IMG/VR virus record: IMGVR_UViG_3300012943_000028
Location: 304,642-358,444 of that record
From: a virus
Taxonomy: Duplodnaviria; Heunggongvirae; Uroviricota; Caudoviricetes
Strand: one strand, 5' to 3'
Length of the DNA: 53,803 bases
Positions 52,507-52,636 of this stretch are shown piece after piece. Made by a program: the position numbers and the translations under genes. Within the stretch, counting starts at the first letter, position 1; each line of letters starts with the position of its first letter. Below the pieces are notes generated by a model. The model saw only the letters and a list, made by a program, of their open reading frames with translations, ran no database searches and was not told the origin of the DNA.

Positions 52507-52636
52507 TGGTGCAGAAAGGTTGGATTCGAACCAACGTATGGCGGTTTGGGATAACCATTCACGGGCGGTTGCTTGCGCAACAAATGGATCGCAAACGATG
52601 TTTGAGACCGCTGCCTGGCCACTCGGCTACTTCTGC
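52507..52636 (-). tRNA. interrupted tRNA (copy H): 54-nt insert at 52552-52605; predicted spliced anticodon CCC (Gly)
   Basis: removing the insert gives GCGGT-CTCCCAA-ACCGC with a 5-nt variable loop; an alternative junction gives CAA. Confidence 0.8.

What the first reader, a model, noticed from the sequence alone, without database searches (positions are those of the whole stretch)
52507..52636. Copy H: insert removal yields tRNA-Gly(CCC), an isoacceptor otherwise absent from the window
Seen in sequence: the 5' exon ends GCGGUC and the 3' exon begins UCCCAAACCGC. The joined product has a 7-nt loop CU-CCC-AA, G1-C72/C2-G71 and a short variable loop. The window otherwise has only Gly(GCC). An alternative junction would give CAA (Leu), but this tRNA lacks the long Leu variable arm. 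Inference: this is the best evidence that splicing yields a useful tRNA. The discriminator is A73 rather than the bacterial Gly U73, so the identity is uncertain.
Basis: partly seen in the sequence, partly recalled or inferred. Interest (0 to 1): 0.8.

Follow-up and report, generated by a model that had tools for sequence, protein, structure and literature searches.

The report
Phage tRNA-like gene with Ro60-handle insert
Copy H is a real tRNA-shaped gene of a 358-kb phage whose anticodon loop is split by a conserved 54-base folded element; cutting it out on paper gives a tRNA with anticodon CCC, but the same element forms the end stem of the phage's Y-like RNAs, so it is more likely a permanent docking arm for the phage's Ro60 protein than an intron.

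Summary
On the minus strand at 52636-52507 there is a tRNA-shaped gene with an encoded CCA end. Removing 54 nt on paper gives a cloverleaf with loop CU-CCC-AA.

The "useful spliced tRNA-Gly" reading is only partly supported. The insert is one copy of a conserved two-helix module. I aligned 28 distinct copies, and their base pairs covary well beyond the controls. The module occurs in two forms in related 340-375 kb phages:
- loop-closed, inside the anticodon arm of tRNA genes;
- opened, as the 5'/3' terminal stem of tRNA-like RNAs with YrlA topology.

All four near-complete genomes that carry it encode a Ro60 (TROVE) protein. The module has an unpaired C beside a G.U pair, the hallmark reported for Ro60 sites.

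Several points argue against a working tRNA-Gly:
- H has A73 and A3-U70, while the phage's own Gly tRNAs have U73 and G3-C70.
- Relatives have no Gly(CCC) tRNA, and GGG is rare.
- The positional orthologue in a sister phage keeps the module but has no CCA end and no clean 7-nt loop.
- No single splice rule fits all copies, and no EndA or RtcB gene was found.

Splicing is not excluded, because many sibling copies restore CUU, CAU or GUA arms. This scan had already noted the same design in this genome and in other phages.

The parts
52507..52636 (-). Whole gene, copy H: a tRNA-shaped RNA with an encoded CCA (52509-52507) and discriminator A73 (52510).
   Evidence: ARAGORN -i; Rfam tRNA 40.3 bits; the minimum-energy fold is a cloverleaf plus a long arm.
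52612..52636 (-). Acceptor 5' strand GCAGAAG (52636-52630), U8 A9, and a D arm with a 3-bp stem GCC/GGC and a 9-nt loop holding GG (52627-52613); A26 at 52612.
52605..52611 (-). Anticodon-stem 5' strand GCGGU (52611-52607) plus C32 U33 (52606-52605).
52551..52604 (-). 54-nt module (the 'insert'), made of: leader CAAAC; helix A 5' strand AUCGUUUGCG (52599-52590); a U-rich linker; helix B hairpin GUUGC-GCAA-GCAAC (52581-52568); unpaired C 52567 and G 52566; helix A 3' strand CGUGAAUGGU (52563-52554); UAU (52553-52551).
   Evidence: Alignment A2 of 28 distinct copies. Covariation: 93.1% of cells paired against 84.1% in shuffles, score 0.313 against 0.152, 0 of 500 shuffles as high. Folds.
52541..52550 (-). 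CCCAA (positions 34-38 if the module is removed) and anticodon-stem 3' strand ACCGC (52545-52541).
52511..52540 (-). Variable loop CAUAC, T arm GUUGG-UUCGAAU-CCAAC (52535-52519), and an 8-nt acceptor 3' strand CUUUCUGC with one extra nucleotide.
   Evidence: Compensatory T-stem change in the G001 orthologue.
4975..5103 (-). Sibling copy '5k': a tRNA-shaped gene with the same module (5022-5073) between positions 28 and 29. The loop after removal is CUACUAA.
4741..4871 (-). Sibling copy '4.8k': a diverged module (4788-4842), a weak T stem, and loop CUAUGAA.
48225..48338 (-). Y-like RNA ('copy E'). The same module is opened at helix B and forms the 5'/3' terminal stem. The core has a T arm, a sealed acceptor and a D arm, but no anticodon arm.
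51911..52037 (-). Second Y-like RNA. Its ends form helix B (UGACAAC/GUUGUCA) and helix A. It lies about 470 nt downstream of H.
1030..1163 (-). Third Y-like RNA with the module's two strands at its ends (approximate bounds).

Best explanation
Copy H is a tRNA-shaped small-RNA gene in the tRNA island of a 358-kb phage. Its anticodon stem does not end in a 7-nt loop. It runs on, through an internal loop, into a conserved 54-nt two-helix module.

The phage uses the same module, opened at its tip, as the terminal stem of its YrlA-like Y RNAs. I think the module most likely stays in the mature RNA and serves as the docking site ('handle') for the phage's own Ro60 protein. On that reading H is a new wiring of a Y RNA: a full tRNA body with a free CCA end and a loop-closed Ro60 handle in place of the anticodon loop. 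It would not decode GGG.

The likely life of the RNA:
1. It is transcribed with the tRNA array.
2. Its ends are matured like a tRNA.
3. It folds into an L-shape with a very long anticodon arm.
4. Ro60 binds near helix B, at the unpaired C.
5. The tRNA-like end recruits or distracts a tRNA-binding partner, such as a repair enzyme, a nuclease or PNPase.

Shown here: the sequence, the covarying structure, the sharing of the module between two topologies, and the co-occurrence with a Ro60 gene.

Inferred: Ro60 binding, retention of the module, and the partner.
For: 1. The module is a selected RNA structure. Across 28 distinct copies, 93.1% of cells are paired against 84.1% in shuffles (0 of 500 as high), and sliding the partners gives 12-64%. 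The first four pairs of helix A (A-U, U.G, C-G, G.U) and the flanks AAAC and UAUC are invariant, as expected of a protein-binding site.
2. The same module forms the 5'/3' terminal stem of tRNA-like RNAs that have a sealed acceptor and no anticodon arm (YrlA topology). There are three in the window and one at G000:~2054.
3. A TROVE/Ro60 gene lies at G000:295895-296782. TROVE is also present in 4 of 5 related module-bearing records, including all three that are at least 97% complete.
4. The invariant CAAC-C-G opposite UUUG gives a C-G pair, an unpaired C and a G.U pair, which becomes G-C in four copies. A conserved bulged cytosine in the stem is described as the primary Ro60 site and is retained in bacterial Y RNAs (PMC4030889). 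Only the 5' strand is conserved in bacterial handles (bioRxiv 10.1101/312249). Here too the CAACCG...UGGUUAUC strand is the conserved one.
5. In the H lineage the module is kept while tRNA features decay. The G002 orthologue has helix B changed by two compensatory pairs and keeps the GCAA loop. It has no CCA, although 41 of 44 G002 tRNAs encode one, and it has a mismatched stem and no clean 7-nt loop.
6. Several diverged sibling lineages conserve loops that are poor anticodon loops: AUCAUCC in four, and CUAUCUC, CUAUCCA and UUAUCCG with a pyrimidine at position 37.
7. H lacks U73 and G3-C70. No sister genome has Gly(CCC).
Against: - H and most siblings keep every hallmark of a working tRNA: a 7-bp acceptor, an encoded CCA and D/T tertiary nucleotides.
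- Precise removal at UUAU|C restores 5-bp stems and 7-nt loops with U33, R37 and sensible anticodons in at least 15 distinct sequences.
- GUA, CAU and CUU stay fixed while their stems turn over by compensatory changes, which suggests selection on the anticodon.
- H's module sits inside the loop (33/34), so the anticodon cannot be presented unless the module is removed, yet exactly 2+5 loop nucleotides flank it.
- The module is unlike the Rfam YrlA stem in sequence. H scores only 23.5 bits on RF02553, and that partial match spans the neighbouring tRNA.
- Ro60 binding was not tested.
- The co-occurrence with TROVE is among related phages, so it is not independent evidence.
Confidence: 0.5

Rival explanations
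1. The module is a new kind of small tRNA intron. An unknown phage or host endonuclease, or the RNA itself, cuts at N|(N)AAAC and UUAU|C at the base of helix A. A ligase then joins the exons; a candidate is the RNA ligase with an HNH-like N-terminal region encoded beside the array. The product is a 76-nt tRNA with anticodon CCC that reads the rare GGG codon.
For: - Removal gives a clean cloverleaf.
- The rule UUAU|C gives canonical arms in most sibling tRNAs: CUU, CAU, GUA, UGG and GCG. Stem changes compensate across the insert, for example C28-G42 against G28-C42 in two Tyr copies.
- G000 has C34 isoacceptors for every other four-codon box and lacks only CCC.
- A ligase gene (PF09414, phrog_24030) with an HNH-like N-terminus lies at 6688-7713 next to the array.
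- From established knowledge: one RNA motif can serve both as an intron and as a terminal processing stem. The archaeal BHB motif is the precedent.
Against: - There is no group I core, BHB motif, EndA or RtcB.
- The distance from the 5' cut to helix A varies from 4 to 7 nt. Three copies need UUA|UC instead of UUAU|C, and one group (L085/L087) fits neither rule cleanly.
- Non-decoding loops are conserved in several lineages.
- Module-bearing tRNAs mostly duplicate module-free isoacceptors in the same genome, for example Tyr and CAU in G004.
- H has A73 and A3-U70, not Gly identity.
- The G002 orthologue has lost its CCA.
- No insert-less copy of the H junction exists in IMG/VR.
Confidence: 0.28
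2. H is a tRNA gene inactivated when a copy of the Y-RNA stem was inserted or recombined into it. It persists as a redundant, slowly decaying relic with no function of its own.
For: - Some siblings look decayed: the weak T stem and AUG loop of the 4.8k copy, and the G002 orthologue with no CCA.
- GGG is rare.
- Relatives do without Gly(CCC).
Against: - The module's helices are kept by compensatory changes long after insertion, in many lineages.
- In H against G001 the T stem changes by a compensatory pair, and the acceptor, the CCA and the extra nucleotide are kept.
- Module-bearing genes persist across phages that have diverged widely.
Confidence: 0.12
3. H is a bait or decoy. It would be a full tRNA mimic tethered to Ro60 (and through it to an exonuclease or a repair enzyme) that attracts host anticodon nucleases or tRNA-modifying enzymes.
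For: - In siblings with the module at 28/29 the anticodon loop stays intact and is of kinds often hit by anticodon nucleases, such as Lys, Tyr and Met (target list from memory).
- Jumbo phages pair TROVE proteins with RNA-repair genes (PMC7824862).
Against: - In H itself the loop is split by the module, so it cannot mimic an anticodon loop.
- There is no direct evidence.
Confidence: 0.07

Closest known systems
YrlA-type bacterial and phage Y RNAs bound by Ro60/Rsr (Rfam RF02553; Chen et al. 2014, PMC4201824; bioRxiv 10.1101/312249)
   Same: - The genome encodes a Ro60 gene.
- The RNA is modular: a tRNA-like D/T/acceptor core plus a long stem with an unpaired C beside a conserved helix.
- The stem takes the place of the anticodon loop.
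- Sibling RNAs in the same window have the true YrlA topology and use the same stem.
   Different: - H's ends lie at an open acceptor stem with an encoded CCA.
- The stem is closed by a GCAA loop rather than formed by the RNA's ends.
- A 5-bp anticodon stem is kept.
- The stem sequence is unlike the Rfam consensus, and the score is far below the gathering score.
Archaeal tRNA introns at non-canonical positions, permuted and split tRNA genes (BHB motif, EndA, RtcB)
   Same: - Short structured inserts sit at varying positions of the anticodon arm.
- The same motif is also found in terminal stems of other RNAs.
- Removal restores a canonical tRNA.
   Different: - There is no bulge-helix-bulge geometry.
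- No EndA or RtcB gene was found.
- The context is bacterial-phage.
- The cut positions that would be needed are not uniform.
Bacterial group I introns in tRNA anticodon loops (for example cyanobacterial tRNA-Leu(UAA))
   Same: The insert lies inside the anticodon loop of a tRNA gene in a bacterial-type genome.
   Different: At 54 nt it is far too small for a group I core, and Rfam gives no match.
Phage tRNA repair systems (T4 Rnl1/Pnkp; jumbo-phage Rnl2 and TROVE sets, PMC7824862)
   Same: An RNA ligase gene lies beside a large phage tRNA array, and a TROVE protein is encoded in the same genome.
   Different: Those systems reseal host-cut tRNAs. No role in removing an encoded insert is known for them.

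Membership tests
tRNA gene with a spliced intron (known classes) | Group I ribozyme core in the insert | tested here: not met
   No group I hit at the gathering score or at E<=10. The insert is 54 nt.
tRNA gene with a spliced intron (known classes) | Bulge-helix-bulge motif at the exon-intron borders, and an EndA-type endonuclease | tested here: not met
   The fold shows a 7x8-nt internal loop next to a 10-bp helix. PF01974 is absent from the complete genome.
tRNA gene with a spliced intron (known classes) | A sealing ligase (RtcB or Trl1-type) | tested here: inconclusive
   RtcB is absent. A PF09414 RNA ligase with an HNH-like N-terminus is present at 6688-7713, but nothing links it to the insert.
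tRNA gene with a spliced intron (known classes) | Removing the insert restores a canonical cloverleaf with a 7-nt loop | tested here: met
   ARAGORN on the joined sequence gives tRNA-Gly(ccc), 76 nt.
tRNA gene with a spliced intron (known classes) | The spliced RNA exists | not testable with these tools
YrlA-type Y RNA | Ro60/TROVE gene in the same genome | tested here: met
   PF05731 hit at G000:295895-296782. It is also present in 4 of 5 related module-bearing records.
YrlA-type Y RNA | Long stem formed by the RNA's own 5' and 3' ends that carries the Ro60 site | tested here: not met
   In H the stem is closed by a GCAA loop and the ends lie at the acceptor. Sibling RNAs at 48225-48338, 51911-52037 and ~1030-1163 do meet it.
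YrlA-type Y RNA | Unpaired C beside a conserved helix, with the 5' strand conserved | tested here: met
   Invariant CAAC-C-G opposite UUUG in 28 copies. The comparison with the literature description (PMC4030889; 10.1101/312249) is by inference.
YrlA-type Y RNA | tRNA-like D and T arms with the tertiary nucleotides | tested here: met
   Rfam tRNA 40.3 bits; GG in the D loop; UUCGAAU T loop.
YrlA-type Y RNA | Sealed acceptor, no CCA end, no anticodon loop | tested here: not met
   H has an open 7-bp acceptor, A73 and an encoded CCA.
YrlA-type Y RNA | Score at or above Rfam RF02553's gathering score (69 bits) | tested here: not met
   23.5 bits, a partial match that spans the neighbouring tRNA.
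YrlA-type Y RNA | Binds Ro60 | not testable with these tools
   Needs a gel-shift assay or co-purification.
Bacterial tRNA-Gly | C35 and C36 | tested here: met
   Only after the insert is removed on paper.
Bacterial tRNA-Gly | Discriminator U73 and G3-C70 (with G1-C72 and C2-G71) | tested here: not met
   H has A73 and A3-U70. The phage's Gly(UCC) and Gly(GCC) have U73 and G3-C70. The identity set itself is from established knowledge of E. coli GlyRS.

The most novel reading that the evidence does not exclude
The Ro60-handle-shaped module is a true mini-intron of a kind not yet described. It would be excised at the base of helix A from tRNAs of a whole clade of jumbo phages, perhaps with Ro60 as chaperone and the ligase with the HNH-like N-terminal region as sealing enzyme. 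In H this would release a tRNA with anticodon CCC and non-glycine identity marks (A73, A3-U70) that could read GGG as another amino acid.
Probability: 0.25. Interest if true: 0.85.

Novelty: new variant of a known kind. Interest (0 to 1): 0.55.

Why it matters
What the tRNA-like half of bacterial and phage Y RNAs does is an open question. This phage clade writes the same Ro60-type stem into two wirings. In one the acceptor is sealed, as in classical YrlA. In the other a complete tRNA body has a free CCA end and, in many copies, an intact anticodon arm.

That gives a natural series of variants on which to test three things:
- whether Ro60 partner RNAs are charged;
- whether they are cut by anticodon nucleases;
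- whether they are handed to repair enzymes.

If the arm is instead removed, this would be a third route of tRNA splicing, and the first in phages that is not a group I intron. Either outcome can be reached with one Northern blot or tRNA-sequencing run and one Ro60 binding assay.

For annotation, these genes should not be counted as decoding tRNAs. Here that means "Gly-CCC" should not be added to the phage's repertoire without RNA evidence.

Tried and rejected
- Group I intron or a known small ribozyme: Rfam gave nothing but tRNA in and around the insert, even at E<=10.
- BHB/EndA splicing: no such motif in the fold, and no PF01974.
- RtcB: absent.
- Leu(CAA) junction: rejected, because AAAC is an invariant part of the module. 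The product would also have a Leu anticodon on a class I body.
- One uniform splice rule: UUAU|C fits most copies. However, L076 (Arg ACG), the G002 orthologue of H and the 4.8k copy need UUA|UC, and L085/L087 fit neither rule cleanly.
- Insert-less orthologue of H: no exact match to the joined junction in IMG/VR.
- More H-lineage orthologues: two pattern scans found only G001 and G002.
- Cultured relatives: the closest by the ligase protein is Ralstonia phage RsoM2USA. It has a weak TROVE hit but no copy of this module, so no laboratory data bear on the question.
- Literature: three full-text searches for phage tRNA introns or tRNA/Y-RNA chimeras found no description.
- Folding energy alone: z = -1.42, not informative.

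Full report
**Where the window lies.** The window is the last 53.8 kb of a 358,444-bp IMG/VR virus record. The record's two ends overlap by only about 107 bp. The tRNA island therefore runs across the contig junction. ARAGORN finds 58 tRNAs and a tmRNA in the genome, 45 of them in the window. By the RNA ligase protein, the closest cultured relatives are XacN1-type jumbo phages such as Ralstonia phage RsoM2USA.

**The observation.** On the minus strand, 52636->52507 reads as a tRNA whose anticodon loop is interrupted.
- Rfam's tRNA model gives 40.3 bits with a 55-nt insertion.
- The joined sequence is a 76-nt cloverleaf with loop CUCCCAA, G1-C72, C2-G71, A3-U70, a 5-nt variable loop, A73 and CCA.
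- One extra nucleotide sits between the T stem and the acceptor 3' strand.
- The window's only other Gly tRNA is GCC. The genome also has UCC.

**What the insert is.** It is not unique. Two more tRNA-shaped genes in the window carry a related insert: 4975-5103 and 4741-4871. Pattern scans of IMG/VR and of the metagenome collection found it in many tRNA genes on contigs of 340-375 kb phages and their fragments.

I aligned 28 distinct copies (A2). They share this layout:
- a leader ending in AAAC;
- helix A, whose first four pairs (A-U, U.G, C-G, G.U) never vary;
- a U-rich linker;
- helix B, closed by a short loop;
- CCG;
- the return strand of helix A, ending in UGGU;
- UAU, followed by C.

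The structure covaries:
- 93.1% of cells are paired against 84.1% in shuffles (0 of 500 shuffles as high).
- The covariation score is 0.313 against 0.152.
- Sliding the 3' partners gives only 12-64% paired.
- Seven pairs show changes on both sides, for example U-A to A-U and U-A to C-G at two helix A pairs, nine sequences each.

This is a selected RNA structure. It is not a random insertion.

**Two topologies of one module.** In the same genomes the two strands of the module also occur apart, as the 5' and 3' ends of small RNAs. The cores of these RNAs have a T arm, a hairpin-sealed acceptor and a D arm, but no anticodon arm. Examples are window 48225-48338, about 51911-52037, about 1030-1163, and G000:~2054. 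That is the architecture of YrlA-type Y RNAs, the partners of bacterial Ro60 (PMC4201824; bioRxiv 10.1101/312249). I checked it as follows.
- The genome does encode a TROVE/Ro60 protein, at G000:295895-296782.
- TROVE is also present in 4 of 5 related records that carry the module, including all three that are at least 97% complete.
- The invariant CAAC-C-G opposite UUUG gives a C-G pair, an unpaired C and a G.U pair, which becomes G-C in four copies. A conserved bulged cytosine in the stem is reported as the primary Ro60 site and is kept in bacterial Y RNAs (PMC4030889).

Two limits apply. The module is unlike the Rfam YrlA stem in sequence, and no binding was tested.

**Does removal make sense as splicing?** Cutting at UUAU|C and at the end of the tRNA's own helix restores perfect 5-bp stems and 7-nt loops in many sibling genes:
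- CUU in several lineages;
- CAU in several lineages;
- GUA in three;
- UGG and GCG in one each.

Stem changes compensate across the insert. That is the best argument for an intron.

Against it:
- The distance from the 5' cut to helix A would vary from 4 to 7 nt.
- The insert sits at 27/28, 28/29, 29/30, 31/32 or 33/34.
- Three copies need the cut one base earlier, at UUA|UC.
- Several diverged lineages conserve loops that are poor anticodon loops: AUCAUCC in four, and CUAUCUC, CUAUCCA and UUAUCCG with a pyrimidine at position 37.
- In the complete genome G004 the module-bearing Tyr and CAU genes duplicate module-free ones.
- The phage has no EndA and no RtcB. The insert has no group I core, no BHB motif and no known ribozyme match.
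- An RNA ligase with an HNH-like N-terminal region lies beside the array. Such ligases are ordinary parts of jumbo-phage RNA repair (PMC7824862).

**The H lineage itself.**
- The G001 orthologue is about 92% identical. It has a compensatory T-stem change and one compensatory pair in helix A, and its anticodon arm is the same.
- The positional orthologue in the complete sister genome lies at G002:109626-109749, between Thr(tgt) and Ile(gat) as in G000. It keeps the module, with helix B altered by two compensatory pairs and the same GCAA loop.
- That G002 gene lacks a CCA end, although 41 of 44 tRNAs in that genome encode one. It also has a C.A mismatch in the stem. It gives a 6-nt loop under UUAU|C, or CCA under UUA|UC.
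- H has A73 and A3-U70, whereas the phage's own Gly tRNAs have U73 and G3-C70.
- Neither G002 nor G004 has a Gly(CCC) gene.
- GGG makes up 3.0 per 1000 codons in long ORFs.
- No insert-less copy of the joined junction exists in IMG/VR.

In this lineage, selection seems to hold the module and the tRNA-like body rather than a decoding function. The apparent CAA anticodon on the 5' side is only the invariant AAAC of the module.

**Verdict.**
- Most likely (about 0.5): H is a tRNA-shaped Y-RNA variant whose module stays in and docks the phage Ro60.
- A real but unproven alternative (about 0.28): the module is a new small intron and H yields a tRNA with anticodon CCC, probably not a normal tRNA-Gly.
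- A decaying relic (about 0.12) and a bait function (about 0.07) are less likely.

A single small-RNA experiment would decide. This scan had already flagged the same design in this genome (e1-5431560, e1-5431562). According to its unchecked notes, it also flagged the design in several unrelated phages and a giant virus. I did not test those notes and do not count them as evidence.

Noticed in passing
window 45762-46019 (-): Match to bacterial RNase P RNA class A at 63.9 bits (E 5.5e-18), below the gathering score of 100 and only about 258 nt long. It may be a minimised phage-encoded RNase P RNA inside the tRNA island.
   Followed up: no
window 6688-7713 (-): RNA ligase (PF09414; phrog_24030 over its full length) whose first ~80 residues weakly match HNH endonuclease families. 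It lies directly beside the tRNA array. The same architecture occurs in RsoM2USA, SCTP-2 and Caulobacter jumbo phages.
   Followed up: partly
window 527-606 (-): tRNA-like gene that ARAGORN does not call. It has an acceptor, a D arm and a T arm, plus an anticodon stem GCAGA/UCUGC that closes an 8-nt loop, UACGUGAC.
   Followed up: no
window 53289-53400 (-) and 53483-53803 (-): Two more tRNA-like 3' ends (T arm plus CCA). The first has a 9-nt loop containing UAU and an extra hairpin arm. The second is preceded by about 300 nt of GC-rich structured sequence.
   Followed up: no
window 4647-4732 (-) and 5197-5287 (-): Over-long tRNA calls with extra sequence in or near the anticodon/variable region: Ala(cgc) at 86 nt and Asn(gtt) at 91 nt.
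   Followed up: no
G004:62898-63027 (-) and G004:58408-58590 (-) (loci L096, L095): In a complete sister phage, tRNA-shaped genes with a CCA end carry other large inserts. One has a long hairpin in place of the anticodon arm. The other has about 100 nt in the D loop. Grafted tRNA bodies are therefore common in this clade.
   Followed up: partly
loci L020, L066, L085, L087, L016/L067, L071, L078: Module-bearing tRNAs of relatives repeatedly have loops containing UAUC or AUC with a pyrimidine at position 37. These echo the UUAUC at the module's 3' border. No explanation.
   Followed up: partly
G000:1-107 and 358337-358444: The record's 'direct terminal repeat' is only about 107 bp. The tRNA island at the window's end continues into G000:1005-3301, which holds Leu, Phe(aaa), Gly(tcc), two Tyr and Val.
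   Followed up: partly
H, and loci L012/L057, L051, L080 (6436): H and one sibling lineage share an 8-nt acceptor 3' strand, that is, one extra nucleotide after the T stem. The nucleotide varies while the flanking pairs are kept.
   Followed up: partly
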